A DNA stretch of 64,000 nucleotides from a phage: assembly GCA_029742005.1 (NCBI GenBank), contig GCA_029742005.1_4113.1; one strand, written 5' to 3'. Each line of letters begins with the position of its first letter. The stretch's first letter is position 1. A model generated the notes under the pieces. The model did no database searches. It was not told the DNA's origin and saw nothing but the letters and a program-made list of their open reading frames with translations. Position numbers and translations under genes: made by a program. This document shows, one piece after another, positions 10,066 to 63,882 of this stretch.

Positions 10066-10728
10066 ATGATGAAATCAAAATTAGGTTTGTTTTATAAAAA
10101 CTATTTTGTTAAACAACGTAAATTTATAAAAAAATATTTCTCTGGTGAGAAGTCTAGTCCTATAATTTTTAAAAGACCAAGTTATAATACTTACTTAGCT
10201 GGTGCTAAACAGTCTAAGAAATTTATTACTCTTTTAAATAAAAACAAAATTAAAGCTTCTTATGTTGAAACGAGAAGAAACTCATCAATAACTCCTGGTG
10301 ATTTTATTGAGTACGGATGTTTCAATATTAAGTATAATGATAATACATACTTTATGGATATTGATTGTAATACATCCAATCTTTTTAACATTGTAGTAAA
10401 TCCATTAAAACAATATAATGTTTATGGTGATTCTATTATCAAATTAATAAAAAACAAAGATGGCTTTGATTTTGAAATAAATGTTTTAGATGATAATTTT
10501 GACGAAGTACCCGTAAACCCTGAAATCTGTGATATTTTAAACAGTTTAAAAGGTAGTACCTACAATATATCATCTGATTTAATGTTTCAGTACTCATTAA
10601 TCCATAAAGATATTGAAAAGTATATTGAATGCTCCAGAATTTTGAATTTTCTCTATGATGAATTTAAAAAGAGTTCTAAAATAACTGCATACACTTTGTA
10701 CAATATTCCTAAAATGGTGAATCTTTAA
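10066..10728 (+). CDS. hypothetical protein
   Basis: RBS AAGGAG; 220 aa; converges on the minus-strand block. Confidence 0.55.
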   Translation: MMKSKLGLFYKNYFVKQRKFIKKYFSGEKSSPIIFKRPSYNTYLAGAKQSKKFITLLNKNKIKASYVETRRNSSITPGDFIEYGCFNIKYNDNTYFMDIDCNTSNLFNIVVNPLKQYNVYGDSIIKLIKNKDGFDFEINVLDDNFDEVPVNPEICDILNSLKGSTYNISSDLMFQYSLIHKDIEKYIECSRILNFLYDEFKKSSKITAYTLYNIPKMVNL

Positions 10729-22785: not shown

Positions 22786-22827
22786 ATTTCCTCCTTTATT
22801 CATTATATCATATTTACCCCATAACCC

Positions 22828-49767: not shown

Positions 49768-49978
49768 TGAACATGGGCTTATAGTAATGGATGTAATCAA
49801 CATCGAATTCAAAAAGTTGATACGCTACCGTTGTTATGAAGATAAGCAACTCGTTCTAGCAGAACAGAAGTTGTTTCGACTCTTAAACACAAACTACCAA
49901 GCACAATACGAAGAATCGTATATGTACCTTTTGGCGAGGAAAGCAAAAAGAGATTATGAAAATTTTAAGCCACGATAA
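49748..49978 (+). CDS. small protein, family C
   Basis: ..LNTNYQAQY.. Confidence 0.5.
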   Translation: MKHLTDDEHGLIVMDVINIEFKKLIRYRCYEDKQLVLAEQKLFRLLNTNYQAQYEESYMYLLARKAKRDYENFKPR

Positions 49979-50171
49979 ACAAACAGAATTGTTAATCTTT
50001 AATACAAGTAAATTCTTAAACATAACATTGTCTGATATAGATGAGGATGAAAAAGAGTTACTTAGAGCAGATTTAAGAGTTCTTTTATATATTGGAACTA
50101 ACTTCCAAGAGCAATTCGTTGAGGACTACATCGATGAACTTAAAGAATCTGTACTGAGAACATGCAAATGA
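49956..50171 (+). CDS. small protein, family C
   Basis: ..IGTNFQEQF.. Confidence 0.5.
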   Translation: MKILSHDKQTELLIFNTSKFLNITLSDIDEDEKELLRADLRVLLYIGTNFQEQFVEDYIDELKESVLRTCK

Positions 50172-50413
50172 AAATCCTTTCACCAAGTGAATACCACGAA
50201 CTATTAAGTAGTTTAATTCTAAAATTGTATATAGCAAAGACCACAGATTTACCAGATGAAGAAAAAAATATTCTAATGAGTGAAATCTATGTTAATTCTA
50301 CCCTAGGGACTAACTATCAAGAATGTAATATTAATGATTACATCAAAGAACTAAAAAGGTTTATCCAATGCAAATGCGAATCATTACCGGAGAAGAATAC
50401 CGAACAATCATAA
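50168..50413 (+). CDS. small protein, family C
   Basis: ATGA overlap; ..LGTNYQECN..; 3' end runs into next gene. Confidence 0.5.
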   Translation: MKILSPSEYHELLSSLILKLYIAKTTDLPDEEKNILMSEIYVNSTLGTNYQECNINDYIKELKRFIQCKCESLPEKNTEQS

Positions 50414-50610
50414 ATGGACTGTTTTTGAAGTTATTTGCCATTAACACATCAAAACTACCAGATACGGATAAAATTATTAAGTTAAATGAAATCTACGTTC
50501 AAGCTACTCTAGGAACTAACTATCAAGAAGCCAATGTGTATAATTACATTAATACACTTAAAAGGGTAATACAATTAAAATGCACAGACAGCACATACAC
50601 AAACCCCTAG
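50374..50610 (+). CDS. small protein, family C
   Basis: ..LGTNYQEAN..; near-duplicate of 50168. Confidence 0.5.
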   Translation: MRIITGEEYRTIINGLFLKLFAINTSKLPDTDKIIKLNEIYVQATLGTNYQEANVYNYINTLKRVIQLKCTDSTYTNP

Positions 50611-50810
50611 GAACAGCAGAATACATTGAACTAATGGCAGCAAACTTCTCATCCTTTCAGAAACTGATGCAAGAATCAAATAATGATTTAGAATATCATA
50701 TCAAAAGTTCAGATTTAAGATTGTTACTCACTCTAGGAACAGACAGTCAGTACAAATTCGTACAGGAGCATATTAGAGCACTTTTAAATGGCATCAGGAA
50801 TAAACTATGA
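50580..50810 (+). CDS. small protein, family C (divergent)
   Basis: ..LGTDSQYKF.. Confidence 0.45.
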   Translation: MHRQHIHKPLGTAEYIELMAANFSSFQKLMQESNNDLEYHIKSSDLRLLLTLGTDSQYKFVQEHIRALLNGIRNKL

Positions 50811-51022
50811 AGGTAATATCAAACCAAGAGTACTTGGCACTATTCAGAAAAAATAGTCAAGAATTTCTGAATCTTGATACAAGAACTGATATAAGTGAAC
50901 TTGAAAAAAATCTTTTGCGTTCAGAGATGATAGTACTGACACTCTTAGGAACACAGCACCAAGAGAGAACTGTTAATTCACACATAGGGATTCTTATACA
51001 GATAGTACAGGAAAAGATATGA
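50807..51022 (+). CDS. small protein, family C (divergent)
   Basis: ATGA overlap; ..LGTQHQERT.. Confidence 0.5.
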   Translation: MKVISNQEYLALFRKNSQEFLNLDTRTDISELEKNLLRSEMIVLTLLGTQHQERTVNSHIGILIQIVQEKI

Positions 51023-51240
51023 GAATCATAACACAACAAGATATTCTTAAGTTCACAAGGGTTCATGCATCTGAATTTGATGCTATATTATCAAAAAGTT
51101 ACAACAACCCTTATACAGAAGATGTACACTACAGTGAATTATGGGTGTATATACTTTTAGGTACAGATCATCAAGAGCAAGCAGTACAGAAGTATTTGTT
51201 AGCGTTAAGTACTGCTACTGCTAATGGAGTATGTGTTTAA
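51019..51240 (+). CDS. small protein, family C (divergent)
   Basis: ATGA overlap; ..LGTDHQEQA.. Confidence 0.5.
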   Translation: MRIITQQDILKFTRVHASEFDAILSKSYNNPYTEDVHYSELWVYILLGTDHQEQAVQKYLLALSTATANGVCV

Positions 51241-51241
51241 T

Positions 51242-51484
51242 ATGAAAGTACTGACAGAATTAGAAATGTATCATAGATTTAATAAGTACTATCATTTACT
51301 TAAACCTATACAGAGGATTAAGTGTCCCTTTGTAGTGAAACAGGTATTAATTTATGAGCATAAGTTATTTGTATCATTAGGTACGAATGAACAAGAGTAT
51401 TATTTGAAGTTGTACTTAATTACTTTAATTGAATTGATTAATTACAAAACTCAGAAAGCGAAGAAATCTAAAAATGAAAACTAA
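51242..51484 (+). CDS. small protein, family C (divergent)
   Basis: RBS GGAG; ..LGTNEQEYY.. Confidence 0.5.
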   Translation: MKVLTELEMYHRFNKYYHLLKPIQRIKCPFVVKQVLIYEHKLFVSLGTNEQEYYLKLYLITLIELINYKTQKAKKSKNEN

Positions 51485-51815
51485 AATTCAACTCAGGGTA
51501 TACATATCGTATGAAAATATATACGTTAAAAGTAGTCTATGTAAAGATGTAATGGACTACAAAGGTAAACCATTCACAGTTACTTACAGTTTAACAGGAG
51601 GTTTATATATCTCTTTTGCTAATTACGAAAATAATATGTACGAACACATTGACATTGAAGATTTAAGTACTTTATCACCAGAGGAATACTTCCAGGAATC
51701 ATTAGTATGGGATTTAGAGTTCCCTATGCCATTAGTACATAAGATGATAGTACTAATGAAAGAATCTAAACAGGAGCCTAATAGTGCTTATGAAGAACAC
51801 ATTATTGAGTATTAA
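51474..51815 (+). CDS. FQ-motif family D protein inside family C array
   Basis: ..SPEEYFQESLVWDLEF.. Confidence 0.5.
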   Translation: MKTKIQLRVYISYENIYVKSSLCKDVMDYKGKPFTVTYSLTGGLYISFANYENNMYEHIDIEDLSTLSPEEYFQESLVWDLEFPMPLVHKMIVLMKESKQEPNSAYEEHIIEY

Positions 51816-51827
51816 GAGTACTGATAT

Positions 51828-52043
51828 ATGAAAAGATTATCATACAAAGATTACAGTAAACTTATCAGTACTTTACAACCAGAAATTAGAAGAATTAATT
51901 ATCTTCCTATATCTAACGAAGAACGTGTAGTACTGAAAAATGAGTTAATCTTAAAACGCACAGTAGGTACTAACTATCAAGATAATAGTGTTCGCGATTT
52001 AATTAGAGGGTTAATGATCACAATAAAGGCCAAGTGCTATTGA
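51828..52043 (+). CDS. small protein, family C
   Basis: ..VGTNYQDNS.. Confidence 0.5.
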   Translation: MKRLSYKDYSKLISTLQPEIRRINYLPISNEERVVLKNELILKRTVGTNYQDNSVRDLIRGLMITIKAKCY

Positions 52044-52107
52044 CAGTACTTGACGGAGCTTTTCATTACTGATATAGTGCATCAACGTTAATCATAGGGT
52101 ACAGATT

Positions 52108-52353
52108 ATGTTAAAATTTTTAAATTTCCTTATCGTCTTGTGTATTGTTCTTGGAATTGCACCGTTTGTATTAGCGTATCTGGATTCAGATGAAATGCAG
52201 AAGATGAATTGCACAAAGACAGGACAGAGTAGAGAAGAGACGGTTATGATGCCTGTAACGGTTATTGTGAATAACATACCAATTACGAACATGATTCCTA
52301 CCCTAACGACAACGTACCAGTACTCTTGTGCTGACGGAGAGAGGTGGAGATGA
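52108..52353 (+). CDS. small membrane protein
   Basis: Hydrophobic N-terminus; RBS ATAGGG weak. Confidence 0.45.
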   Translation: MLKFLNFLIVLCIVLGIAPFVLAYLDSDEMQKMNCTKTGQSREETVMMPVTVIVNNIPITNMIPTLTTTYQYSCADGERWR

Positions 52354-52661
52354 AATTTAATATAGCAAAAACATCGAGTATATGTATTTTTGGTTATTCC
52401 TATGAATTGGGTGATATTGACATTCTATTGTACAAAACGAATGGTGTTATGCATTTCAAGTACCAGGATGAAGAGGCAGACAATTATCTTTTACCTAATT
52501 TAGTACAAATGCAGGAAGAGGAATTATTCCAGTACAGCTTAATATACGACATTGATATTTGCACGATGCCAGTATTAATTAGTATTCAAAAAGTGATGCT
52601 CGATATGTATGATAAGCTAATACAAGGTATGTCAGGGAGGATCATTGAAATCGATATATAA
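52344..52661 (+). CDS. FQ-motif family D protein
   Basis: ..QEEELFQYSLIYDIDI.. Confidence 0.5.
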   Translation: MEMKFNIAKTSSICIFGYSYELGDIDILLYKTNGVMHFKYQDEEADNYLLPNLVQMQEEELFQYSLIYDIDICTMPVLISIQKVMLDMYDKLIQGMSGRIIEIDI

Positions 52662-52857
52662 GAATTTACCTAATGAATATTTGTTGAAGTACAAAGAGTT
52701 TATTAAAGATGTATATGTAGATCCTTTTAATATCAAATTTGCAGAGTTCGAAGTATCATTTTATCTAGGGACAATAGTACAGGACCAATACGTTGATAAT
52801 CTAATAAGGTGTTTGAAAAAGGAGATACAATGCAGACCCAAATGTACAAAAAAATAA
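52645..52857 (+). CDS. small protein, family C (divergent)
   Basis: ..LGTIVQDQY.. Confidence 0.45.
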   Translation: MKSIYKNLPNEYLLKYKEFIKDVYVDPFNIKFAEFEVSFYLGTIVQDQYVDNLIRCLKKEIQCRPKCTKK

Positions 52858-53093
52858 ACTGTTATTTGTATGCATCAAAGTACAGGGATTTTTGTTTACG
52901 AGGGGGAGAGGAAGATTTTGCTCTGAGATTATCGGAATTTAATATGTTATTTTATCTTGGTACATCAGTACAAGAAGAAATGGTACAGAAATTTATCAAT
53001 CACCTTGTACAAAAAATTAATATGCAAATTTTGATGCTTGAGTTACAGAATGAGATAAACAAATATGAACCCAACAATAGTACAGGATCTTAA
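52830..53093 (+). CDS. small protein, family C (divergent)
   Basis: RBS AGGAGA; ..LGTSVQEEM.. Confidence 0.45.
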   Translation: MQTQMYKKINCYLYASKYRDFCLRGGEEDFALRLSEFNMLFYLGTSVQEEMVQKFINHLVQKINMQILMLELQNEINKYEPNNSTGS

Positions 53094-53454
53094 ACAAGTA
53101 ATATTCCTTTTGAATACAAGAAGTGAAATGTATACAGAGTTTAAAGAGATTAATGCATTTTATCAGAATTTTGTAATTCAAGAGTTCAGTGATTTAATTA
53201 CAGATGCATTATTTGAATTATCGGAAAAATACAAAGGAACAGAGTTCAGTGTTAAAAATGTATTACGTTCTTTATCAACGCGTATAATAAAATTAGATCA
53301 TTTCAAATTTGAAAATAAAGATTTATTCAGTCACAATCCAAGTACAGCTTTATATTTTATTCCTGATTCAGACAAAAATCATCCTATTCATTACGGATGG
53401 ATTTTGTCGTACATAGTACAAGGAAAGGAGTATCCTATTAAATGGAACGATTAG
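53065..53454 (+). CDS. hypothetical protein
   Basis: 129-aa ORF. Confidence 0.45.
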   Translation: MNPTIVQDLKQVIFLLNTRSEMYTEFKEINAFYQNFVIQEFSDLITDALFELSEKYKGTEFSVKNVLRSLSTRIIKLDHFKFENKDLFSHNPSTALYFIPDSDKNHPIHYGWILSYIVQGKEYPIKWND

Positions 53455-53602
53455 GGCGATTAGATTATTACACAATTAATACAAATTATTTGTTGCGTAA
53501 TATAAAATCCGATTACAAAATATGGATAAAGAACAGAGATAGTATGTGTTATGAATTTTATTTAGATTATGCCATCAAACGCTTTTTAAGAGAAGAACAT
53601 TA

Positions 53603-53794
53603 ATGCACACACCGCACAAAGAGCACAAAAATACAAAAACGATAAATGTTTTAAATGATTCTTTATTGGTGAGTATAAATTTATATTATAAAATTCATTT
53701 AAATGGTGGTATTGAAAATTTTAGTTATTATTTGAGTGCAATATCGCAAGAGCATTTAATATACCAAGATCATTTATTGCACCCGAATCCATAA
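53603..53794 (+). CDS. hypothetical small protein (doubtful)
   Basis: ORF only; no RBS; AT-rich. Confidence 0.25.
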   Translation: MHTPHKEHKNTKTINVLNDSLLVSINLYYKIHLNGGIENFSYYLSAISQEHLIYQDHLLHPNP

Positions 53795-53802
53795 GGCGAA
53801 TT

Positions 53803-54348
53803 ATGAATGAGATAGAATTATTAGCACACAAGATTAGTACAATAATGCTTATCCTAAATAACAACCATCCTATATCGCAGATAGATGGAATCCTGAGTCA
53901 GAGGACAGGTGGTAGTTTATATTTGACATTAACAGAGGTTATCGCAAGGAATTACATTGATATTGAAATCGAGAACAGTGATGCATCAGGAAAGGTTGAT
54001 GTAGGTGCATTAATCAGTTCAAATCCAGTATCAGCATCCCCATTGACCAAAGGTGTTAGTACAGGATTCGAAGGGTATTTGTGGTACAATACCAATGATG
54101 ATTATTTTATATATCAGCATTCCAATACAAATTATGATGAAGACAAATTTCAGTTCATAGACCCTTATGATGAAGCTGAAGTATTTCAAAAATCATTAAT
54201 CACAAAACCGCATGAGATGATGTATCTAATGTTATTCAGTACAATGCATTTGAATCCATTAATTAAAGGTTTAAAATTTTATATTCAATTGAAATTAGTC
54301 CATGTAGTTTATGATTTATTAATGCAAGGATATAGTTATGAAGTATAA
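53803..54348 (+). CDS. FQ-motif family D protein
   Basis: ..YDEAEVFQKSLITKP.. Confidence 0.5.
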   Translation: MNEIELLAHKISTIMLILNNNHPISQIDGILSQRTGGSLYLTLTEVIARNYIDIEIENSDASGKVDVGALISSNPVSASPLTKGVSTGFEGYLWYNTNDDYFIYQHSNTNYDEDKFQFIDPYDEAEVFQKSLITKPHEMMYLMLFSTMHLNPLIKGLKFYIQLKLVHVVYDLLMQGYSYEV

Positions 54349-54655
54349 AATGCTTAATACAGTATCAGGGATATATGTAGAATTAGAATCCGATTATTCA
54401 GATGGATGGAATTTTATTAAACGACACGATAGAAATACATGGTACATGGCACATTTGGATAATGACGTAATAATAGATAATTTTGTCGATTTTAATACAT
54501 TATCAGAAGAAGAATTTTTCCAAATGCAATTTGTGCTTGATACAAATGGATTTGATTTGCTATTATTAAGGAATATTCAGAAAGCGGTTAATGAATTCAT
54601 AATCCAAAATAATTCAGGTAAAATGGGGATGTTCCATGATCTGGAAGTACAATGA
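54338..54655 (+). CDS. FQ-motif family D protein
   Basis: ..LSEEEFFQMQFVLDT.. Confidence 0.5.
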   Translation: MKYKMLNTVSGIYVELESDYSDGWNFIKRHDRNTWYMAHLDNDVIIDNFVDFNTLSEEEFFQMQFVLDTNGFDLLLLRNIQKAVNEFIIQNNSGKMGMFHDLEVQ

Positions 54656-55193
54656 AATTCAGTACACCTACGCTAATGCAATCCTTATGGGACAAAAGTT
54701 AGCTTGTATTGTTGCAGCCTTATATAATGCACAGAAAGATTACAAGCGTCATATCCACAAATGTATTGGTATTATTCCATCGAAGTACAATACATATATT
54801 GCGTGCACGAGTCATTTTGATAAACGATTCAATACACCTGATACCCCAAATGCCAGTAGTGTTATTGGTCTTTTGGATTTCGCACCTGGTGCTGTTATTG
54901 GAAAGAATGATTTAGAGTACACATGGTATAATAAAAATGCCCCGTTAGTAATGGGAAAATATGATACAGAAACGAACAAAACAATAGAGTACAATACATA
55001 TAAATCAGAGGAAGAATTTTTCCAAGGTTCATTGCTTGTACCAGTGCGTTTGTTGTTTTATAATGTCCTTATTAGTACAGTACACAATAGTCCATTACAC
55101 AAGAATCACAAAATTAATTTCAATTTTTGTGCTTATGCGATTGATGGTGTGTATGAGTGTTTAATGGAGGTATTGAGTTATGAAGCTGAATAA
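54636..55193 (+). CDS. FQ-motif family D protein
   Basis: ..KSEEEFFQGSLLVP.. Confidence 0.5.
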   Translation: MIWKYNEIQYTYANAILMGQKLACIVAALYNAQKDYKRHIHKCIGIIPSKYNTYIACTSHFDKRFNTPDTPNASSVIGLLDFAPGAVIGKNDLEYTWYNKNAPLVMGKYDTETNKTIEYNTYKSEEEFFQGSLLVPVRLLFYNVLISTVHNSPLHKNHKINFNFCAYAIDGVYECLMEVLSYEAE

Positions 55194-55521
55194 TACATTT
55201 GATATTAATAAGTTAAGAGAATGGTTTTATAGTATTGAAATTGAAGCCATCCCGTATCATAGATATGAACAATATAATTTAACCAGTATTGATATCCGTG
55301 AGTTGTACGCGTATTATCAAAGTGCATTAGAGATGCATAAGTTATTTTTGAGTACAGATTTTGTTATAAATTACAATTTTGAGGAATTTAATAATTATAA
55401 TTTAGTACAGAAATATGTAGTAGCAAAGTACATGTACCTTCAAGGAATTACAAGTAATTTGGAATTCAATACAGTCCTGGCTTTAGTTGAGGTAATTTTA
55501 TGCAGTACATGTATGATTTAG
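55180..55521 (+). CDS. hypothetical protein (array member, motif not evident)
   Basis: RBS GGAGG. Confidence 0.45.
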   Translation: MKLNNTFDINKLREWFYSIEIEAIPYHRYEQYNLTSIDIRELYAYYQSALEMHKLFLSTDFVINYNFEEFNNYNLVQKYVVAKYMYLQGITSNLEFNTVLALVEVILCSTCMI

Positions 55522-55895
55522 AGTTTAGTTTAGATGCTGCCTTTAAATTTGTTCACAAGATAGAAACAATATACAGTACATTATGTGCAATACAATCAGT
55601 ATCATCTGAGTTTGATGTTGGTGAAAAATATCAGGTATGGAATAATACATTTCTAAACAAAGAACGTTGCTCTACGGGGTTTAATATTTTAACATTTAAT
55701 CCCAGCAATTGTTACCCAGAGAAGCATGAACGTTATCCGAATGACGACATGTGGTTTGATTACACAAAAGATGGTGATATGTCATCCCTTGTAGTTCCTG
55801 ATGATTTTAATGCCGAAGATTTAACGGAAGAGTGGTGGTTTCAACAGAATTTAGTTCACGATGATATTGATTTATTTTTTTTATGTAGTATTTAA
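55500..55895 (+). CDS. FQ-motif family D protein
   Basis: ..LTEEWWFQQNLVHDDIDL.. Confidence 0.5.
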   Translation: MQYMYDLEFSLDAAFKFVHKIETIYSTLCAIQSVSSEFDVGEKYQVWNNTFLNKERCSTGFNILTFNPSNCYPEKHERYPNDDMWFDYTKDGDMSSLVVPDDFNAEDLTEEWWFQQNLVHDDIDLFFLCSI

Positions 55896-56022
55896 AATGC
55901 TTTATCACAACAATATATTAAAAGATAGTGTGTTTTTTTCATGTCTATATATTGATGATTTGTACAATGAAATCCAAATCAACATTCCCAGCACGCCTGT
56001 ATCGTAAGATATGGGCTTTTTT

Positions 56023-56050
56023 CGTTTTGGTATTGACAAAGAAGTGCAAA
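56023..56050 (+). promoter_or_regulatory. internal promoter TTGACA-16-TATCAT
   Basis: Consensus -35; precedes RBS AAAGGAGAA and GTG start. Confidence 0.45.
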
Positions 56051-56089
56051 GCTGTTATCATGTGTAATCATTTTAAAGGAGAACATATA

Positions 56090-56602
56090 GTGAGTTTCAT
56101 AATCCCAAGTACATACGAAGATGCATCAAGTGCAGTTCATAAGATTCATTATATTTTTAATTTAATTATTAGATCTGCAAAAATTAAAATGTATGCACCT
56201 CTTGTGGAATACGATAAAAATGAGGAAATTTTTGTTAGCACAGACCAAATTATTTTTCCATATTTCAATGAAGATAGATTGTGGTTCATGCATTTAGCTG
56301 CATTACAAAAATATAAAATGTCAATTCGTAATAATTTGGATATACCGTTATATCATCCTGATATTGGAGAGGATGAATATTTTCAGTACAGTACAGTACA
56401 CCGCCATGAAGATATCTTTGTTGCTATGCTTATTGCTAAATTGAATACCGTTGATTTGGAGCAGTACAAATACAATAATAAATCATGTAAGATCATAATC
56501 CCTGCATTCATAGCTCTTTATGATTATGTGGTGCATAACAAAAAAGATGATACATATGCTTTCAATGAAGAGTATTTGAATTTTTTTAAGGAGAACATAT
56601 GA
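56090..56602 (+). CDS. FQ-motif family D protein
   Basis: GTG start after AAAGGAGAA; ..IGEDEYFQYSTVHRHED.. Confidence 0.5.
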   Translation: MSFIIPSTYEDASSAVHKIHYIFNLIIRSAKIKMYAPLVEYDKNEEIFVSTDQIIFPYFNEDRLWFMHLAALQKYKMSIRNNLDIPLYHPDIGEDEYFQYSTVHRHEDIFVAMLIAKLNTVDLEQYKYNNKSCKIIIPAFIALYDYVVHNKKDDTYAFNEEYLNFFKENI

Positions 56603-57126
56603 GCAGTGAAGTGCTGAAATCAATGACATTCAATGAAATTGGTGCATTTAAAGATAAGATCATTGATTGCATTGAATACATGATTTGTAGTAATATCGAA
56701 AGTATTGAGATATTTAACAAGACAAATCGCTCTTACCATATGATGTACATTGCAAACAATAATGGTATCATTCCATTTATTTCGGATAGTACAATATGGT
56801 ACGCATGTGATACGAAAAAAACCACAATAGGTTTACATTCATTTGAGACACATTATGATCTAATTATTCCTGAACATTGTATGCAAGAAGAAGAATATTT
56901 TCAAATGCAATGTATACATTCACCATTAGTGTTGTTTAGTTTATATATTATACCTTATATCACCAAATGTGTTCATGAGAATAAAGCTCCGTGGAATCAT
57001 GAATTTGTATCGTTGAAGTTATTGTATAATGTATTAGTAGAATATTATGATTACAGGCACAATGGTACAATCAGTGATGTATGGGATTTTGAATCGCTAA
57101 GGGTGAAAACATACACAGGTGAATGA
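56599..57126 (+). CDS. FQ-motif family D protein
   Basis: ..MQEEEYFQMQCIHSP.. Confidence 0.5.
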   Translation: MSSEVLKSMTFNEIGAFKDKIIDCIEYMICSNIESIEIFNKTNRSYHMMYIANNNGIIPFISDSTIWYACDTKKTTIGLHSFETHYDLIIPEHCMQEEEYFQMQCIHSPLVLFSLYIIPYITKCVHENKAPWNHEFVSLKLLYNVLVEYYDYRHNGTISDVWDFESLRVKTYTGE

Positions 57127-57742
57127 TATGACCAGAATTAAAATGTATGATTTGATGCAGTACAGTAAAATTGCCATTCCAGTGCTTAATAAAGTGCTGG
57201 ATGCATTCATTGCCAAATACCCTGAGAATTCAGTGTTATGTATTCCATTTAGTGTTCCAGATAAAGATGATATATTCCAAGTGAATGTCAGTACACGTGG
57301 TATTACATTGCAGCAGAAATACATGGATACGGAATATTATGGAATAAAGTTGGATTCAGTACAGGGTTCAAAATCAGCCTATGATTTTTTTGTTCCTAAT
57401 AATATAGAGTCATGGGAAACAAACATTTCAAAGAAAGATGAAAATGATGTTCCTATTAGTGGTGTGTTCAACAATAAAGTTTTTTATTATTACGAAACCG
57501 ACAAATTCCCTGAAGAGTTATATTACAATTCAGAAATGATTGAAGATGTAGATGCATTCATGTTTCAATTATCGTTAGTACATGATATCATTGATGTTCA
57601 AGAGTTAAGAGCAGAAATCAATTTAGCTAAAGAGTTATCGGACATGCTGCCACCGTTTAGTATGCTTTTTTGTGAAGGAGGTTATTTTTCAAAAGAAGTG
57701 TTTGAACATTTCGTAGATGTTGTAAAAGGGTTGGATATATAG
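57119..57742 (+). CDS. FQ-motif family D protein (divergent)
   Basis: ..EDVDAFMFQLSLVHDIIDV.. Confidence 0.5.
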   Translation: MNDMTRIKMYDLMQYSKIAIPVLNKVLDAFIAKYPENSVLCIPFSVPDKDDIFQVNVSTRGITLQQKYMDTEYYGIKLDSVQGSKSAYDFFVPNNIESWETNISKKDENDVPISGVFNNKVFYYYETDKFPEELYYNSEMIEDVDAFMFQLSLVHDIIDVQELRAEINLAKELSDMLPPFSMLFCEGGYFSKEVFEHFVDVVKGLDI

Positions 57743-57743
57743 T

Positions 57744-57938
57744 ATGCTTACAGTTGATGTTAAACAAAAATACCGTAAGTTTGATTGGTTCACCGACAGT
57801 TTCCAGCTTGAATTATTACATTTGAATATCTGTGAAACATTATGTGCAGAAACACAAGATGAATTTGATGATAGAGTGCTTCACATCGTAGTTCTTTCTT
57901 GCTTTAAACATTTTGGTTATTTTTTCGGACAGAATTGA
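57744..57938 (+). CDS. small hypothetical protein
   Basis: 64-aa ORF. Confidence 0.4.
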   Translation: MLTVDVKQKYRKFDWFTDSFQLELLHLNICETLCAETQDEFDDRVLHIVVLSCFKHFGYFFGQN

Positions 57939-57946
57939 GGTAAAAA

Positions 57947-58465
57947 ATGCATCAACACAAGCATCATTCATATGATTTTGCAATTAACATTATGAAGTTC
58001 ATTCGAGCGTTGGAGGATGGGAAGCTTAGTCATAAGTACACCAAAGTGGGTGACAATTGGTTCAGAAATGATGATGATGAGTTCAGAAGTCATAAGATTG
58101 TTTACAGCAATAATTACAGTGCCAATTACCTACAAGATGTAGTGATGTGTTTTGAATACGTGTTACAGTTCAGGGGTTCCATCAGTCCTGAGCTAAGAGA
58201 ACACATGTACATTCGATACCTACCAATGCTTAAGGATGAGAAATCAATATTCAATTCAGTACACCACAGAGTACGAGAGAGAACATTCAGAGATATTTTG
58301 GAAGATGAAGCTGCCTATTTTCAGCAATCATTGATTGATGCTCCTGATGTGTTACAGATGCAGAATTTGTATAATGTATTAGATGCGAACATCGATACGG
58401 ATATCTTTTTTTCCTTAAGTGATTATGAAACATTTTTGGAAGATTTAAAGGAAATAGGATTATGA
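57947..58465 (+). CDS. FQ-motif family D protein
   Basis: RBS GAGGT; ..EDEAAYFQQSLIDAPD.. Confidence 0.5.
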   Translation: MHQHKHHSYDFAINIMKFIRALEDGKLSHKYTKVGDNWFRNDDDEFRSHKIVYSNNYSANYLQDVVMCFEYVLQFRGSISPELREHMYIRYLPMLKDEKSIFNSVHHRVRERTFRDILEDEAAYFQQSLIDAPDVLQMQNLYNVLDANIDTDIFFSLSDYETFLEDLKEIGL

Positions 58466-58806
58466 GTAGATTTTCAGTTTATATAGTAAACGTCAGTAAA
58501 GATGGTAGTTTAATTGAATTTGATGTAGTTGATAACAATGATAATTCATATGGTATTAAGGTACAGGACAATGATGTACAGTTCAGTACAAGGACAAATT
58601 TTGAGAATCCAGTCCAAGTTCCGAATTTCATAGAAGATGAAGCTGCACGATTCCAATACGAAACGGCCTTTGATAATTTAGCGATGCATATTATTATGCA
58701 AGAAAGTTTAGTTCAATTGCTTCAGGTATTCAGACAAAATATATATGTACATGAAGTGTCGATTAATGGCATTCAAAGTTCCGTTTTGTTCGGTACAAAT
58801 ATGTAA
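58462..58806 (+). CDS. FQ-motif family D protein
   Basis: ATGA overlap; ..EDEAARFQYETAFD.. Confidence 0.5.
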   Translation: MSRFSVYIVNVSKDGSLIEFDVVDNNDNSYGIKVQDNDVQFSTRTNFENPVQVPNFIEDEAARFQYETAFDNLAMHIIMQESLVQLLQVFRQNIYVHEVSINGIQSSVLFGTNM

Positions 58807-58816
58807 GGAAAGTACA

Positions 58817-59371
58817 ATGAGTTCAATGAGTTTATTAGATACATTAGAAAAAGACAGAAGTGCCATTAAGAGATTAAAAAATCTTGTCCAGAGCATTGCG
58901 AACAACGCTGAGAAGTTCAGTGACAATCTTAGTATAGGTGATATAACCAGTACAGGAATAAAATCCCTGAAGTCAGATTTATTAATTCATAAGGAAGATA
59001 AATTATTATTTGTATTGAGTTCAGATTTAATGGTTGCAAGTAATGGTTTCAATTCGATATCAACACAAGATGGTAGCACAGGATTATATCTATCACAGGG
59101 TGTCCAGACGAACGAACAGAAGTGTTTTAGTTCAGGAGTACAGAATCCCTTTAAGTTCAGTACAGAACAAGCTACAGAGCTTTTAGAGGCTTCAGAAGAG
59201 ATGTTATTTCAGTACAAAACGGTTCATACAGATTTTGAATTACGATGCATGTACGCTGTTAAGCATTATGTTCAGGAGTTCGAGGATTTAAGTTATCTTT
59301 TAGTTCGAACGAATACAAAGAACATTGGTGCATTAGAAGATTACATTTCAAAAGTTGTTAAAGGTTGTTAA
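58817..59371 (+). CDS. FQ-motif family D protein
   Basis: RBS AAGGAAAG; ..SEEMLFQYKTVHTDF.. Confidence 0.5.
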   Translation: MSSMSLLDTLEKDRSAIKRLKNLVQSIANNAEKFSDNLSIGDITSTGIKSLKSDLLIHKEDKLLFVLSSDLMVASNGFNSISTQDGSTGLYLSQGVQTNEQKCFSSGVQNPFKFSTEQATELLEASEEMLFQYKTVHTDFELRCMYAVKHYVQEFEDLSYLLVRTNTKNIGALEDYISKVVKGC

Positions 59372-59380
59372 AGGGTGCTG

Positions 59381-59542
59381 ATGAAAGAGTTATTTGAAGA
59401 ACAGTTCGATACATATGTGGATAATATTCTTTATTCTAGCCGTGCTAGTCAACGAGGAAATCGTGCTTACAACATAGATTACCTATTAACGGTGCTGAGT
59501 TCACAGTACACCTACGCTGTACAGAGGACATATTATGAATAA
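59381..59542 (+). CDS. small hypothetical protein (53 aa)
   Basis: ORF overlapping next start; weak RBS. Confidence 0.3.
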   Translation: MKELFEEQFDTYVDNILYSSRASQRGNRAYNIDYLLTVLSSQYTYAVQRTYYE

Positions 59543-59738
59543 TTTTAGAGATGTTGCAAAGGAGAAGTTCAAGTGCAGTTTAGATTACGGTTTAAATGAT
59601 TTTCTTACATGCACAATGTACAGGAATGATGATTATGAGCAATCCGTAATTTCGTTGCACAGATATTTCGAAATAATTTACGCAAGATATCTTAGAAGGT
59701 TAGAGGGAATAGGGGATTGGAATTATGATTACGTTTGA
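59535..59738 (+). CDS. small hypothetical protein
   Basis: 67-aa ORF. Confidence 0.4.
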   Translation: MNNFRDVAKEKFKCSLDYGLNDFLTCTMYRNDDYEQSVISLHRYFEIIYARYLRRLEGIGDWNYDYV

Positions 59739-59949
59739 AGAGCCGGAAGTGGTATATTGCTTTAGTGTGAAAGGTTTTGAATACATGATGGATTCGATTT
59801 TGAAGGATACATATTTGGTTCAGATTGCAGTTACAGATAATACAGATAATGCATTACAGCGTGTAATGAATATGTACGAGAAGACAAGTCGAAGGCTTTG
59901 TGCAATGAAAAGGATTGAAGAAATCAAGGTTTCTAGGCTGAATAAATAG
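59725..59949 (+). CDS. small hypothetical protein
   Basis: 74-aa ORF, RBS GGAATT weak. Confidence 0.4.
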   Translation: MITFEEPEVVYCFSVKGFEYMMDSILKDTYLVQIAVTDNTDNALQRVMNMYEKTSRRLCAMKRIEEIKVSRLNK

Positions 59950-60147
59950 AGACGTTTCATTTTGACAGGCCGCAGGGGGGTCAAAAAAATTTCCGCTGAA
60001 AAACATGCTAAGGTATATGTTTAATATAAAGTTTTATATTGTGTTTTTCAGAGTACAGTTCATGTTTCCTGAAACAAAAAAAATACCCCGCCACCGAACG
60101 TGCTCCTTATATTGGAGTTTACCTTATTAATTATAGTAGAGATTAAG

Positions 60148-60525
60148 ATGGAAATAAAATATAATGAATTTTGTGCAAGGACATGGATGTACACTGGTGA
60201 GTTAGTTACGCACTCTAACTTATACAAGGGTGATTTAAACTACGCTAGGGACAAGATTTTAAAGTACTGGAATGCTGACTTTTATTTGATGGATTTTAGT
60301 ACTGGGTTTAGGGGTAAAGCAACCGAGATGTTGGACTATACAGTACTTGATGATGCTGCACTGTTTCAGGAGGCATTAGTATTTGATAAGAAGTACATCT
60401 GTACATTAGAAGAGATGATTGAATTACAGCGTAGAATTAAATGTATTCACAGGGAATGTATAGATATCTGGTGCAGTACTGGTGAAGTTGATTTTTGTAA
60501 TCATTTCAATCTAGGGGAAGTGTGA
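60148..60525 (+). CDS. FQ-motif family D protein (LFQEALVFDKKYICT subgroup)
   Basis: ..DDAALFQEALVFDKKYICTLEEMIELQ.. Confidence 0.5.
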   Translation: MEIKYNEFCARTWMYTGELVTHSNLYKGDLNYARDKILKYWNADFYLMDFSTGFRGKATEMLDYTVLDDAALFQEALVFDKKYICTLEEMIELQRRIKCIHRECIDIWCSTGEVDFCNHFNLGEV

Positions 60526-60881
60526 TGGAATTTGATTTTTTAATATCAGTACATTCTTTTAAGCACAGTTTTCAGTACTTTTGTAATTTAAACAAAGGTG
60601 ATTTAATGCACAGTGCGAATGAGTATATTCATTTTACTGATGGTAAATTCTCATTTATTGATTACAGTTCATTAGATTTTCCATACACTGATATGCCGGA
60701 CTATACATTGATGGATGCTGGTGAACTATTTCAAGCTGCATTAGTATTTGACAAGAAGTACATCTGTACATTTGAAGAAGTAATTACTATACAAAATGAA
60801 ATGAAGGTGTATGCATCGTTGAATAAACCTAATGAATGTATTAATCAAGAATACAAATTCAATATAGGAATTCCAAAATGA
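60522..60881 (+). CDS. FQ-motif family D protein (same subgroup)
   Basis: ATGA overlap; ..DAGELFQAALVFDKKYICTFEEVITIQ.. Confidence 0.55.
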   Translation: MMEFDFLISVHSFKHSFQYFCNLNKGDLMHSANEYIHFTDGKFSFIDYSSLDFPYTDMPDYTLMDAGELFQAALVFDKKYICTFEEVITIQNEMKVYASLNKPNECINQEYKFNIGIPK

Positions 60882-61237
60882 CATATGATTATTCTATGTA
60901 CTATTATAAGTTACCTAAAGGATGGGACTTGTGCTGTAATCTTATTAAGGGAGACTCGGAACATGAGTTGAGTTTATATATGCACTACAAAGATTCTTGT
61001 TTTAAATTTATTCATGTATTACATGATGGCTATGACTATGAATCTGAGAGTCTTATAGATTATACAGTACTGGACGATGGTGAACTATTTCAGGAAGCAT
61101 TAGTGTTTGATAAGAATAAGTACTCCTGTACATTTGAAGAAATGGTTTCTTTGCAAAATGAAATGAAGAGATTTGAAAAAGAAAACGTATTTAATCCATC
61201 CCCATCAAGAACGAATAATTATTATTTCAATATATGA
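60878..61237 (+). CDS. FQ-motif family D protein (same subgroup)
   Basis: ATGA overlap; ..DDGELFQEALVFDKNKYSCTFEEMVSLQ.. Confidence 0.55.
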   Translation: MTYDYSMYYYKLPKGWDLCCNLIKGDSEHELSLYMHYKDSCFKFIHVLHDGYDYESESLIDYTVLDDGELFQEALVFDKNKYSCTFEEMVSLQNEMKRFEKENVFNPSPSRTNNYYFNI

Positions 61238-61246
61238 GATTATAAA

Positions 61247-61741
61247 ATGACATTACAGAGTTCATTGGAAAAAGCAAAGAAGATTCATGAGTACATGAAT
61301 ATGGCAAAAGAAGGTTCAGTTTACGGTGTTTTCAAAGACACAAGTACTCAATATTATGTGCCAGATAACCTCCTTTATAATGACTGCTCAGATACAGAAA
61401 CGTGCGTACTGGATACAGAAACGTGCATACTAGATACCGACCCTAATGATTATGAATGTTTCATTGATATGCATAATGAGTACATGGTCTATATTAATGA
61501 TGCAGATATTACCATATACAGTACTGACTGCGATTCCGATGACATTATAATTCCGAGTGAAGTACTAGAAGGTCAGTGGGATAGTGAAGAGTATTACTTC
61601 CAACAAAGTACTGTTTACGATGATGAAGTACTTGAAGTATTAGTTATTATGTGGTACTTTAAAAGTATTGGTTCTGGGAACTTCTATTTCGATTACAGAT
61701 ACGTAACGAAAACTGTAGATAACGGTATTAACAGGGGTTGA
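61247..61741 (+). CDS. FQ-motif family D protein (EEYYFQ/WYFK subgroup)
   Basis: RBS GAGATT; ..WDSEEYYFQQSTVYDDEVLEVLVIMWYFKSI.. Confidence 0.55.
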   Translation: MTLQSSLEKAKKIHEYMNMAKEGSVYGVFKDTSTQYYVPDNLLYNDCSDTETCVLDTETCILDTDPNDYECFIDMHNEYMVYINDADITIYSTDCDSDDIIIPSEVLEGQWDSEEYYFQQSTVYDDEVLEVLVIMWYFKSIGSGNFYFDYRYVTKTVDNGINRG

Positions 61742-61742
61742 A

Positions 61743-62213
61743 ATGAGTTTAGAAAGAGCATTAGAGATTGCGAAGTTAATTGATTTATGCAGCAAAGAAA
61801 TTGTATCAAATTGTCTCAATGGATATCTATTCAAGGAAGGTAAATCATATTGTCGAATGATATACGATGACAGTAGTGAATATATCCATATGTATGAAGA
61901 AAACTTAGATGATTCTGACATAGTACTCACAGGATGTGATGTTAATTTGGAAGATAATTACATGTACTTCTGCCGTGATGCTGATATTTTAATCCAAGAT
62001 TCATTAATTCAAACAGGTGCACCAGAGGTATATCTTCCGTATTCAGTACTGGATAATAACTGGGGTAGTGAAGATTACTATTTCCAGCAGAGTACTATAT
62101 ATAATGAAGATATACTTGACAAACTTGTTATTTCGTGGTACTTTCATAACACGGATTATAGTAGCTTCTACATAGACTTGGATCTACTAAGAGTACTTAA
62201 AGAGGATATATGA
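61743..62213 (+). CDS. FQ-motif family D protein (same subgroup)
   Basis: ..WGSEDYYFQQSTIYNEDILDKLVISWYFH.. Confidence 0.55.
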   Translation: MSLERALEIAKLIDLCSKEIVSNCLNGYLFKEGKSYCRMIYDDSSEYIHMYEENLDDSDIVLTGCDVNLEDNYMYFCRDADILIQDSLIQTGAPEVYLPYSVLDNNWGSEDYYFQQSTIYNEDILDKLVISWYFHNTDYSSFYIDLDLLRVLKEDI

Positions 62214-62650
62214 GTTTAGAAAGAGCACTAGAACTAGCCAACAAAATACATCAGTACTACGATAAAATAAAAAGTGGGTTCTATGGTGATAAAGTACATG
62301 CATATGGGAATGAATATTACCTCACAGGAGTAAAGAGATACTCTAATGATATTTTACTTATGGGTCATGATAAAGACTATACTATACAGTACTCTTCATG
62401 TAGTCAATATACTAGTTTTATGGTATATATTCCTGGTACTAAGATTACTTTTGACACATCAAATACACCTGTTGACTTTGAAGTGTTGGAAGGACCGTGG
62501 GGTACTGAAGAATATTACTTCCAACAGAGTCTCATTTTTAACCAAGAAATGCTTGATTCCTTGGTTGTGTTGTGGTACTTTAAGGAATTGAATTTTGAAC
62601 CATTCTTTCTTGACTGGGGATCATGTGAGTATTTAATTTCAGGGGAATAA
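62210..62650 (+). CDS. FQ-motif family D protein (same subgroup)
   Basis: ATGA overlap; ..WGTEEYYFQQSLIFNQEMLDSLVVLWYFK.. Confidence 0.55.
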   Translation: MSLERALELANKIHQYYDKIKSGFYGDKVHAYGNEYYLTGVKRYSNDILLMGHDKDYTIQYSSCSQYTSFMVYIPGTKITFDTSNTPVDFEVLEGPWGTEEYYFQQSLIFNQEMLDSLVVLWYFKELNFEPFFLDWGSCEYLISGE

Positions 62651-62652
62651 TA

Positions 62653-63141
62653 ATGTCATTACAAAGTGCATTGAAAGAAGCAAAGAAAATTCATGAGTTC
62701 ATGATTATGGTACAGGAAGGTTCAGTACCAGGTGTATACAAAACATCAGATACGGAATTCTTCGTTAAGGATAGAGATGATTATGACGATTCAGAGGTAT
62801 GTGCAGAAACATTAGTACTGCACACTGATACTGGTGACAGTGATAACTGTGAATATCATATGTACAATCAGTACATTAGTTATTGCCGTAATGAAGATAT
62901 TACCATCTACAACACAGATAGTGATGCTGATGACACTATCATTCCTTATTCAGTACTGGAAGGTCCGTGGGATAGTGAAGAATATTACTTCCAGAATAGT
63001 ACTATCTACAATGAAGAAGAACTGGATGTTATTGTGATTATGTGGTATTTCAAAAGTATTGACTCCAGTAGTTTCTATTTTGATTATGAATATGTAGAGA
63101 ATACAGTAGGAGAAGGTAATGTCATTACAAAGTGCTCTTGA
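62653..63141 (+). CDS. FQ-motif family D protein (same subgroup)
   Basis: ..WDSEEYYFQNSTIYNEEELDVIVIMWYFKSI.. Confidence 0.55.
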   Translation: MSLQSALKEAKKIHEFMIMVQEGSVPGVYKTSDTEFFVKDRDDYDDSEVCAETLVLHTDTGDSDNCEYHMYNQYISYCRNEDITIYNTDSDADDTIIPYSVLEGPWDSEEYYFQNSTIYNEEELDVIVIMWYFKSIDSSSFYFDYEYVENTVGEGNVITKCS

Positions 63142-63571
63142 AAAAGCAAAAGAACTACATGGATACTTTGAAGATATAAAGGCCGGAAAGTTCAAAGAAG
63201 TGTACAAAGCCGAGAACGGTAACTACTACAAAGATGAAATGTATAATAACTCCGTTGGTGTAAGGGTTATTCTTGGGTTGAATTCCAATAGTCCTATATC
63301 GTTTTCTGAATACAATAGAGATGCAGAATTTATTAGTTATGTTGAAAATGGTAGCATTCGTTTTATTAATAGACAAAAACCATTAATTTTGAATTATGAA
63401 GTACTGGATGGACAGTGGAATAGTGAAGAGTATTACTTCCAAAACAGTACTGTATATGATGATGAAGTACTTGAAGCATTAGTTATTATGTGGTACTTCA
63501 AGAGTGTTAGCTGTCCTCGATTTTATTTGGATTTCGAAGATCTTCGTAAAGATCCAGAAGGTATAGAATGA
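63119..63571 (+). CDS. FQ-motif family D protein (same subgroup)
   Basis: ..WNSEEYYFQNSTVYDDEVLEALVIMWYFKSV.. Confidence 0.55.
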   Translation: MSLQSALEKAKELHGYFEDIKAGKFKEVYKAENGNYYKDEMYNNSVGVRVILGLNSNSPISFSEYNRDAEFISYVENGSIRFINRQKPLILNYEVLDGQWNSEEYYFQNSTVYDDEVLEALVIMWYFKSVSCPRFYLDFEDLRKDPEGIE

Positions 63572-63882
63572 AAAACTTATTCAGTGTTCAGTACGTTCCT
63601 GGTGAAATTGGTTTATTGTATCTATTTGACCATGATAATTCATTATTACTAGTAGTGAAGAAATGCCAAGCTAGTTCGTTTGTTGAATACATTCACGATA
63701 GTGAATACATTCCTGATTTCCTAGAGTGTGATTATCACGATGAACATGAATCATTTATTTTTCAGGAATCACTCGTTTGGGATAAGTCTATTAACTTCTT
63801 TACGTTAATTGAATTACAAAAGCAGGTGAAGTATCATTGGGATTACTTAATTACACAGGATTACATTGAGATAGAAATATAA
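63568..63882 (+). CDS. FQ-motif family D protein
   Basis: ATGA overlap; ..HESFIFQESLVWDKSINFF.. Confidence 0.5.
   Translation: MKNLFSVQYVPGEIGLLYLFDHDNSLLLVVKKCQASSFVEYIHDSEYIPDFLECDYHDEHESFIFQESLVWDKSINFFTLIELQKQVKYHWDYLITQDYIEIEI

What the first reader, a model, noticed from the sequence alone, without database searches (positions are those of the whole stretch)
51474..63882. Second large paralog family sharing an EE-[YFL]-[YF]-F-Q-x-S motif
About 25 proteins of 105-220 aa (two inside the family C array, the rest from 53.8 to 63.9 kb) differ widely in their N-terminal parts but share a C-terminal module centred on acidic-acidic-aromatic-aromatic-F-Q followed by [QNEYM]-S-[LT]-[VI]-x-D, for example EEYYFQQSTVYDD, EEFFQMQFVLD, EELFQYSLIYD and EAAYFQQSLID. 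The core resembles the substrate consensus of chymotrypsin-like viral cysteine proteases (TEV NIa ENLYFQ|S, 3C LFQ|G), which raises the speculative possibility that these are a family of protease substrates or decoys; it may equally be a structural helix-capping motif.
Basis: partly seen in the sequence, partly recalled or inferred. Interest (0 to 1): 0.72.

Follow-up and report, generated by a model that had tools for sequence, protein, structure and literature searches.

The report
Orphan FQ-motif gene family array
A giant E. coli phage (a 121Q relative) carries a long tandem run of small, fast-diverging genes of unknown function that share one protein fold held together by an almost invariant Phe-Gln helix; the likeness to a viral protease cleavage site is very probably coincidence.

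Summary
In 51474-63882 (+ strand), 21 ORFs, not about 25, form one divergent family with F-Q invariant in every alignment. Leave-one-out profiles recover each member.

The window is an Asteriusvirus, 94% identical to phage 121Q. There the array continues past the window end to about 41-43 copies over about 28 kb. Syntenic arrays occur in Klebsiella phage RaK2 (at least 30 copies) and a metagenomic contig (at least 25). The family has no Pfam, NCBIfam or PDB match and is not described in the papers searched.

AlphaFold2 models (pLDDT 85 and 92) give one compact domain: five strands, a short FQ helix, a long helix and a final strand. FQ sits in the most confident block (pLDDT 98). The flanking pattern [LMI]-[STD]-E-E-x-[YLF]-F-Q fits a helix N-cap with hydrophobic staple, and D at +7 caps the next helix.

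Only 4 of 93 members match ExxYxQ[GS]. The proteases found in this clade are a gp21-like prohead protease, ClpP, a ClpA-like protein and one putative peptidase, none known to be Gln-specific. No member appears in two virion proteomes. The protease-substrate idea is therefore not supported, and the helix-capping alternative is.

The likely role, a diversified set of non-virion binding proteins made from host-type promoters, is inferred and not shown.

The parts
51474..51815 (+). FQ-family member, 113 aa, short form; F73-Q74 (LSPEEYFQESLVWD); embedded in the family C array
   Evidence: (leave-one-out E 5e-6)
52344..52661 (+). FQ-family member, 105 aa, short form (likely start ATG 52350); F62-Q63 (MQEEELFQYSLIYD). 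This is the member modelled by AF2.
   Evidence: E 1e-8; pLDDT 84.8, pTM 0.77
53803..54348 (+). FQ-family member, 181 aa, long form; F128-Q129 (DEAEVFQKSLITK)
54338..54655 (+). FQ-family member, 105 aa, short form; F61-Q62 (LSEEEFFQMQFVLD)
54636..55193 (+). FQ-family member, 185 aa, long form; F129-Q130 (KSEEEFFQGSLLV)
55500..55895 (+). FQ-family member, 131 aa; F114-Q115 (LTEEWWFQQNLVHDD). It is truncated shortly after the motif compared with the 168-aa orthologue in 121Q.
   Evidence: (P0082)
56060..56602 (+). FQ-family member, about 180 aa from ATG 56060 (mechanical ORF 55928-56602, 224 aa); IGEDEYFQYSTVH
   Evidence: (P0048 starts MCNHFKGEH)
56599..57126 (+). FQ-family member, 175 aa; F101-Q102 (MQEEEYFQMQCIH)
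57119..57742 (+). FQ-family member, 207 aa; F149-Q150 (DVDAFMFQLSLVHD)
57947..58465 (+). FQ-family member, 172 aa; F125-Q126 (EDEAAYFQQSLID); only 81% nt identity to 121Q
58462..58806 (+). FQ-family member, 114 aa, short form; F64-Q65 (EDEAARFQYETAFD); no blastn match in the 121Q stretch held (L001)
58745..59371 (+). FQ-family member, 208 aa as a mechanical ORF (likely start about 58817-58826); ASEEMLFQYKTVH; 73% nt identity to 121Q
60100..60525 (+). FQ-family member (likely start ATG 60148, 125 aa); LDDAALFQEALVFDKKY; first of a three-gene tandem subfamily
   Evidence: (E 7e-10)
60522..60881 (+). FQ-family member, 119 aa; F70-Q71 (MDAGELFQAALVFDKKY)
   Evidence: E 2e-11
60878..61237 (+). FQ-family member, 119 aa; F71-Q72 (LDDGELFQEALVFDKNK)
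   Evidence: E 2e-10
61247..61741 (+). FQ-family member, 164 aa, long form; F118-Q119 (DSEEYYFQQSTVYDD); first of a five-gene tandem subfamily. This is the member modelled by AF2.
   Evidence: E 2e-26; pLDDT 91.9, pTM 0.86
61743..62213 (+). FQ-family member, 156 aa; GSEDYYFQQSTIYNED
62210..62650 (+). FQ-family member, 146 aa; GTEEYYFQQSLIFNQE
62653..63141 (+). FQ-family member, 162 aa; DSEEYYFQNSTIYNEE
63119..63571 (+). FQ-family member, 150 aa; NSEEYYFQNSTVYDDE
63568..63882 (+). FQ-family member, 104 aa, short form; EHESFIFQESLVWDK; last complete member before the window end
   Evidence: array continuation in 121Q:
10066..10728 (+). Possible distant member, 220 aa, basic (pI 9.2); SSDLMFQYSLIHKD. 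Motif-level match only; membership not established.
   Evidence: E 0.047; E 0.1-0.8
52050..52078 (+). sigma-70-like promoter (TTGACG-17-TATAGT with TG) in the intergenic gap upstream of 52108/52344
   Evidence: consensus match only
55995..56061 (+). Terminator-like hairpin (55995-56016) followed by a near-consensus sigma-70-like promoter (TTGACA-17-TATCAT, 56033-56061) in the gap between two members
   Evidence: the same promoter is conserved in 121Q (L001:7828)

Best explanation
This is part of a clade-specific multigene family of Rak2-like jumbo phages (Asteriusvirus, Alcyoneusvirus and metagenomic relatives). It consists of about 40 tandemly duplicated genes per genome for small (about 105-210 aa), mostly acidic, soluble proteins that are not found in virions. 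All copies share one compact alpha/beta domain: a five-stranded antiparallel sheet, a short helix carrying FQ, a long amphipathic helix and a final strand that returns to the sheet. Long forms add an N-terminal and a C-terminal helix. The motif [LMI]-[STD]-E-E-x-[YLF]-F-Q-x-S-[LT]-[VI]-[YHFW]-[DN] is the structural keystone of that scaffold. Its first half is the N-cap with hydrophobic staple of the short helix. The Phe packs into the core. The Gln and Ser close the helix and fix the turn into the next helix, which the Asp/Asn caps. The rest of the protein (sheet, loops and N-terminal extension) is free to diverge. Each paralogue is therefore most likely a differently specific binding protein, with a host-takeover or anti-defence role. 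The genes appear to be transcribed by host RNA polymerase from sigma-70-type promoters in the few intergenic gaps. Shown here: the family, the arrays, the synteny, the fold prediction, the helical context of FQ, purifying selection, and absence from virion proteomes. Inferred: burial of F and Q, expression timing, and the binding or anti-host role.
Confidence: 0.5

Rival explanations
1. Shared-partner docking: the invariant FQ helix is an exposed, conserved interface through which every paralogue binds the same partner, while the variable part picks different targets. This would be an adaptor repertoire, like F-box or PRANC proteins. The partner could be the phage's own ClpA-like/ClpP protease or a host hub.
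For: F, Q and Ser(+3) are conserved far more strongly than the rest of the protein. Both genera that carry the arrays also encode ClpP, and RaK2 encodes a ClpA-like protein. About 40 paralogues with a variable remainder suit an adaptor design.
Confidence: 0.13
2. Protease substrates or decoys: EExYFQ is a cleavage site for a Gln-specific chymotrypsin-like protease of the phage or host.
For: E at P6 in 71 of 91 members, Y at P3 in 30 of 91 and Q at P1 in all resemble the TEV determinants ExxYxQ.
Against: The site is helical and inside a well-packed domain. P1' is variable and the conserved Ser is at P2'. Only 4 of 93 members match ExxYxQ[GS]. No 3C- or NIa-like protease is annotated in the relatives consulted; those named are gp21-like, ClpP, ClpA-like and one peptidase. 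The acidic and aromatic positions are accounted for by helix-start rules.
Confidence: 0.03
3. Small enzyme or ligand-binding family: E, E, Q, S and D around the FQ helix form an active or metal/ligand-binding site common to all copies.
For: The conserved polar residues cluster within 12 residues, and Q is almost invariant.
Against: No match to any Pfam, NCBIfam or PDB family. The fold analogues are interaction modules, not enzymes. About 40 copies of one enzyme per genome would be hard to explain. E(-3) and D(+7) are only about 50-65% conserved.
Confidence: 0.07
4. Largely functionless expansion: selfish or neutral tandem duplication that fills a large capsid, with FQ retained only because it is needed for folding and to avoid toxic misfolded products.
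For: Copy number varies between relatives, and truncated and fused copies exist. Jumbo-phage genome growth by duplication has been proposed (PMC13282480).
Against: dN/dS is well below 1 for nearly all members. Arrays of 25-43 copies are kept in syntenic positions in two genera and in metagenomic relatives despite deep sequence divergence. About 8% of the genome would be a heavy neutral load for a lytic phage.
Confidence: 0.1

Closest known systems
Multigene families of large DNA viruses (ASFV MGF110/360/505; poxvirus ankyrin/PRANC, Bcl-2-like and kelch families). Comparison from general knowledge.
   Same: Dozens of tandem, rapidly diverging paralogues of small non-structural proteins on a shared scaffold. 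Copy number varies between isolates. All are kept under purifying selection.
   Different: There is no sequence or fold relationship. The host is a bacterium. No host-range or immune-evasion phenotype has been shown here. The scaffold is an orphan alpha/beta domain.
Polo-box domain (beta6-alpha), e.g. PLK2 4rs6, PLK1 9fjg, PLK4 PB3 5lhx
TEV NIa (ENLYFQ|S/G) and picornavirus 3C (LFQ|G) cleavage sites
   Same: E at P6, an aromatic residue at P3, F at P2 and Q at P1 in many members.
   Different: The context is helical and structured. P1' is variable and Ser is at P2'. Only 4 of 93 members match ExxYxQ[GS]. No cognate protease is annotated in the relatives consulted.
Helix N-terminal capping box with hydrophobic staple (general protein-structure motif; from established knowledge)
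   Same: Hydrophobic N', S/T/D at N-cap, acidic N1-N3 and hydrophobic N4 match positions -6 to -1 of the motif. The predicted helices start exactly at the first Glu.
   Different: The capping rules do not explain the invariance of F, Q and Ser(+3). Those residues are specific to this family.
PHROG families 9317, 13866, 12674, 15629, 34017 and about 18 others (all 'unknown function')
   Same: The window proteins hit these families, some at E = 1e-60 to 1e-150.
   Different: PHROGs splits the family into more than 20 unconnected groups. The unifying FQ domain, its fold and the roughly 40-copy arrays are not described there or in the papers read.

Membership tests
TEV/3C-type protease substrate site | Core consensus ExxYxQ followed by G/S at P1' (TEV), or LFQ followed by G-P (3C) | tested here: not met
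   Only 4 of 93 members contain ExxYxQ[GS]. P1' is Y/L/E/Q/N/G/M and others, and P2' is Ser in 72 of 91.
TEV/3C-type protease substrate site | The site lies in an accessible, extended or disordered segment | tested here: not met
   FQ is in helix H58-67 (short model) and H114-120 (long model), where the block has pLDDT 98. Solvent accessibility itself could not be computed.
TEV/3C-type protease substrate site | A cognate Gln-specific chymotrypsin-like protease is encoded by the phage or host | tested here: inconclusive
   Annotation and papers for relatives list only a gp21-like prohead protease, ClpP, a ClpA-like protein and one putative peptidase. No complete genome was scanned with profile models here.
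Polo-box domain | Significant structural superposition on the beta6-alpha polo-box fold | tested here: inconclusive
Polo-box domain | Sequence-profile match to Pfam POLO_box, or the phosphopeptide-binding His-Lys pincer | tested here: not met
   No Pfam hit for any of 22 members at E up to 1. The only invariant residues are F and Q.
Helix capping box with hydrophobic staple (structural motif) | Hydrophobic N', S/T/D at N-cap, E at N3, hydrophobic N4, at the start of a helix | tested here: met
   Position frequencies in 130 unique motif windows: -6 L/M/I (with D common), -5 S/T/D in 102, -4 E in 102, -3 E in 85, -2 E in 43, -1 Y/L/F/M/W. DSSP helices begin at the first Glu in both models.
Beta-clamp-binding motif (QL[SD]LF / QLxLxL; considered from memory) | Q-L-x-L-(x)-F/L in a flexible terminal or linker peptide | tested here: not met
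   Position 2 after Q is variable, position 4 is Thr as often as Leu (61 against 63), and the segment is inside a folded domain. Binding itself is not testable with these tools.
Virion (structural or internal) proteins | Detected in purified particles | tested here: not met
   No gene product from the array regions appears in the phAPEC6 list of 62 virion proteins or the RaK2 list of 54.
Viral multigene family (tandem paralogue array) | Many homologous genes in tandem, conserved as an array in related viruses, with copy-number variation | tested here: met
   21 in the window, 41-43 in 121Q, at least 30 in RaK2 and at least 25 in L008. Synteny upstream of dam. Gain, loss, fusion and truncation between relatives.

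The most novel reading that the evidence does not exclude
The FQ domain is a phage-invented binder scaffold, and its roughly 40 paralogues per genome form a diversified repertoire. The invariant FQ helix would be a common docking element, for example for the phage-encoded ClpA-like/ClpP protease, so that each paralogue delivers or neutralises a different host protein. That would be a bacterial-virus counterpart of F-box/PRANC adaptor families or of the ASFV multigene families.
Probability: 0.1. Interest if true: 0.8.

Novelty: new variant of a known kind. Interest (0 to 1): 0.5.

Why it matters
About 8% of a 350-kb phage genome is spent on one uncharacterised protein family that has no relatives outside the Rak2-like jumbo phages and no confident structural match. 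The family has been kept as a syntenic array in at least two genera that infect different hosts. Large tandem multigene families are a hallmark of host manipulation in eukaryotic giant viruses, but few are characterised in phages. This family gives a defined, testable set (one scaffold, two invariant residues, about 40 natural variants) for asking what jumbo phages do with their extra coding capacity. Unifying more than 20 separate PHROGs under one domain also helps annotate every Asteriusvirus and Alcyoneusvirus genome. Separately, it is a warning that a near-perfect TEV-like string can arise from ordinary helix-start rules.

Tried and rejected
- **Domain libraries.** Pfam, NCBIfam and PDB-sequence profile searches found nothing. 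PHROGs gave only 'unknown function' groups.
- **Related loci.** The search for related loci with the family alignment failed because no stretch was conserved enough.
- **Cross-genus tblastn.** Single members do not cross genera, so presence in GAP32, CBB or PA5oct was not settled. BFVD shows only a non-significant GAP32 hit.
- **Family C relationship.** Profile-profile comparison with the neighbouring 70-aa 'family C' gave 0.2% probability, despite a superficially similar Q-x-x-V...L stretch.
- **ORF 10066-10728.** The motif matches but profile support is lacking.
- **Literature.** Papers on 121Q, PBECO4, RaK2, phAPEC6, CBB, Sharanji, UE-S1 and fEgEco12, and a 2026 jumbo-phage review, do not describe this family.


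Full report
**Source and context.** The window is an Asteriusvirus, a jumbo myovirus of E. coli. The stretch 51000-64000 matches phage 121Q at 94% identity over 98% of its length and matches 35 further records of this group. All genes under the match are annotated 'hypothetical protein'.

**Observation.** A six-frame scan for FQ and the ORF list show 21 + strand ORFs between 51474 and 63882 with the string acidic-acidic-x-aromatic-F-Q-x-S-[LT]-[VI]-aromatic-D at a comparable position.
- Two lie inside the 70-aa 'family C' array (51474, 52344). The other 19 lie from 53803 to 63882.
- Four independent MAFFT alignments give F and Q as the only invariant internal columns, at a mean column identity of 10-17%.
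- Leave-one-out profiles recover every one of the 21 at E = 5e-3 to 2e-26, while the best unrelated ORF typically scores 0.01-0.7, with one outlier at 0.0016.
- A profile dominated by sequences from other phages recovers all 21 at E = 3e-5 to 9e-40.
- The count is therefore 21, not about 25.
- The ORF at 10066-10728 carries a good motif string but has no profile support (E = 0.05-0.8).
- Some mechanical ORFs start too early. Likely starts are 56060, 60148, about 58820 and 52350.

**Genes are real.** Against 121Q, dN/dS is 0.08-0.73 and at most 0.5 where dS is at least 0.015. Most starts are preceded by SD-like motifs or overlap the previous stop codon.

**Extent of the family.** The array is cut by the window end.
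- In 121Q the profile finds 25 members in 160.7-176.7 kb and 17-19 more up to 189.2 kb. That is 41-43 genes over about 28 kb, ending a few genes upstream of a DNA methyltransferase.
- Klebsiella phage RaK2, a different genus (Alcyoneusvirus), has at least 30 members at 245-276 kb, also upstream of dam.
- A 109-kb metagenomic contig (L008) has at least 25 members in 15 kb. Two short contigs consist only of members.
- An exhaustive profile search of 1.84 billion representative proteins finds only 51 representatives. The word-indexed search finds 38 clusters, and the named ones and those on long (roughly 350-kb) contigs come from E. coli jumbo-phage genomes.
- Among 93 profile hits in the window, 121Q and RaK2, all 78 that score at least 25 bits have FQ at the aligned columns.
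- Exceptions occur only in low-scoring (under 25 bits) copies: FN, FS, FT and two adjacent EQ copies.

**Known families.** There is no match in Pfam, NCBIfam or PDB sequences. PHROGs splits the members over more than 20 groups of unknown function. None of the papers read on 121Q, PBECO4, RaK2, phAPEC6, CBB, Sharanji, UE-S1 or fEgEco12 describes the family. The RaK2 paper says only that about 10% of its proteins are paralogues.

**Structure.** AlphaFold2 on the 105-aa member (52344; 65-sequence alignment) gives pLDDT 84.8 and pTM 0.77, with E4-11, E14-19, E25-32, E35-41, E47-50, H58-67, H75-93 and E100-104. F62-Q63 lie in the short helix.
- The 164-aa member (61247; 53 sequences) gives pLDDT 91.9 and pTM 0.86. 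It has the same core order plus an N-terminal helix (H3-22) and a C-terminal helix.
- In that model F118-Q119 end helix H114-120, and the block 111-120 has pLDDT 98, equal highest with two other blocks.
- The 'variable N-terminal part' and the 'conserved C-terminal module' are therefore predicted to be two halves of one compact domain.
- Foldseek against viral models returns only family members from RaK2, PBECO4 and slurp01.

**What the motif is.** Position frequencies in 130 unique motif windows are:
- -6: L/M/I (with D common)
- -5: S/T/D
- -4: E (102)
- -3: E (85)
- -2: E or variable
- -1: Y/L/F/M
- 0: F
- +1: Q
- +2: variable
- +3: S (104)
- +4: L or T
- +5: V/I/L
- +6: Y/H/F/W
- +7: D/N
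- then acidic residues, with hydrophobic positions at +11, +14 and +15

The predicted helix starts at the first Glu. Positions -6 to -1 therefore reproduce the textbook hydrophobic-staple and capping-box pattern (N' hydrophobic, N-cap S/T/D, acidic first turn, N4 hydrophobic). This rests on established knowledge. D/N at +7 sits at the start of the next helix. Only F, Q and S(+3) remain family-specific.

On a helical wheel, F groups with the conserved hydrophobic positions -1 and +4. Q lies between +4 and +5, which are both conserved hydrophobic. This suggests that the helix is sandwiched and that Q is at least partly buried.

**The protease idea.**
- The P6 E, P3 Y and P1 Q resemblance to TEV is real at string level: 71, 30 and 91 of 91 members.
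- P1' is variable and the conserved Ser is at P2'. Only 4 of 93 members match ExxYxQ[GS].
- The site is helical and well packed.
- The proteases named in relatives are a gp21-like prohead protease, ClpP (121Q 214364-215056; 70% identical to the RaK2 protein), a ClpA-like protein and one putative peptidase. None belongs to a family known to be Gln-specific.

**Biology that can be inferred.**
- No member is in the virion proteomes of phAPEC6 (62 proteins) or RaK2 (54 proteins).
- Members are mostly acidic, with median pI 4.65 against 6.6 for other ORFs, and no hydrophobic segments were evident from the sequences or mean hydropathy.
- Near-consensus sigma-70 promoters are strongly enriched in the window (25 against 0.9 in shuffles). 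They fall in the rare intergenic gaps inside the arrays of the window (52050, 56033), 121Q and RaK2. This suggests transcription by host polymerase.
- Gene content turns over between relatives: an extra member in 121Q, a fused pair in UE-S1, and a truncated copy at 55500. Three adjacent genes at 57.9-59.4 kb are only 73-81% identical, or unalignable, to 121Q among neighbours at 97-100%.

**Conclusion.** The finding is a real, large, clade-restricted multigene family on an orphan fold. The FQ motif is best read as its structural keystone, not as a cleavage site. The most likely role is a diversified set of intracellular binding proteins used against the host. That role is inferred by analogy with multigene families of large eukaryotic viruses and remains untested. 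A shared-partner (adaptor) function for the FQ helix is not excluded, and it is the most interesting open alternative.

Noticed in passing
window 1463, 6105, 6688, 36290, 39297, 42601, 44005 (+); also L008:1513 and L008:3692: A repeated near-consensus promoter, TTGACTYCGGTCAGYCCYTTTGCTATTAT, whose spacer begins with the palindrome TGACyyCGGTCA. It is conserved almost base for base in a distant metagenomic relative, which suggests a regulated (operator-bearing) promoter class.
   Followed up: partly
window 27507, 36847, 38563, 39812, 40171 and others in 27-44 kb (+): A second promoter class, TTGACA-N-AGTACTGTATAAT, with a conserved extended -10 region. Together the two classes give 25 strong sigma-70-like sites in the window against 0.9 expected from shuffles.
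   Followed up: partly
window 11204-22803 (- strand): A tandem array of nine paralogues of about 370-396 aa with RCC1-like repeats (two of them tested; PF25390, PF13540, PF00415). By size and annotation they resemble the 'DNA condensation proteins' detected in phAPEC6 virions.
   Followed up: partly
window 55500-56007 (+): The FQ member at 55500 stops 14 residues after the motif (…DLFFLCSI*), whereas the 121Q orthologue is 168 aa. The missing C-terminus may lie in another frame (ORF 55861-56007, not checked), so this is a frameshift, a pseudogene or a sequencing error.
   Followed up: partly
window 45.5-53.1 kb (+), e.g. 49956-51484, 51828-52043, 52645-53093: 'Family C': about 70-aa paralogues with an invariant T and Q in the conserved LGT-x-x-Q stretch and an invariant L downstream. 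It is not related to the FQ family by profile-profile comparison (0.2%), although both have an invariant Gln followed by V...L.
   Followed up: partly
window 57947-59371 (+): Three adjacent FQ genes are far more diverged from 121Q (81%, no blastn hit, 73%) than their neighbours (97-100%). This points to a recombinational replacement hotspot inside the array.
   Followed up: no
window 6746-7516 (+): A 256-aa protein with weak AAA/STAND-type P-loop NTPase matches; only PF00004 reaches its Pfam cutoff, and the best E-value is 4e-6.
   Followed up: no
121Q 214364-215056; RaK2 ORF069 and ORF489: Rak2-like phages encode their own ClpP. RaK2 also encodes a 769-aa ClpA-like protein, so it may have a complete phage-borne ATP-dependent protease whose substrates are unknown.
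   Followed up: partly
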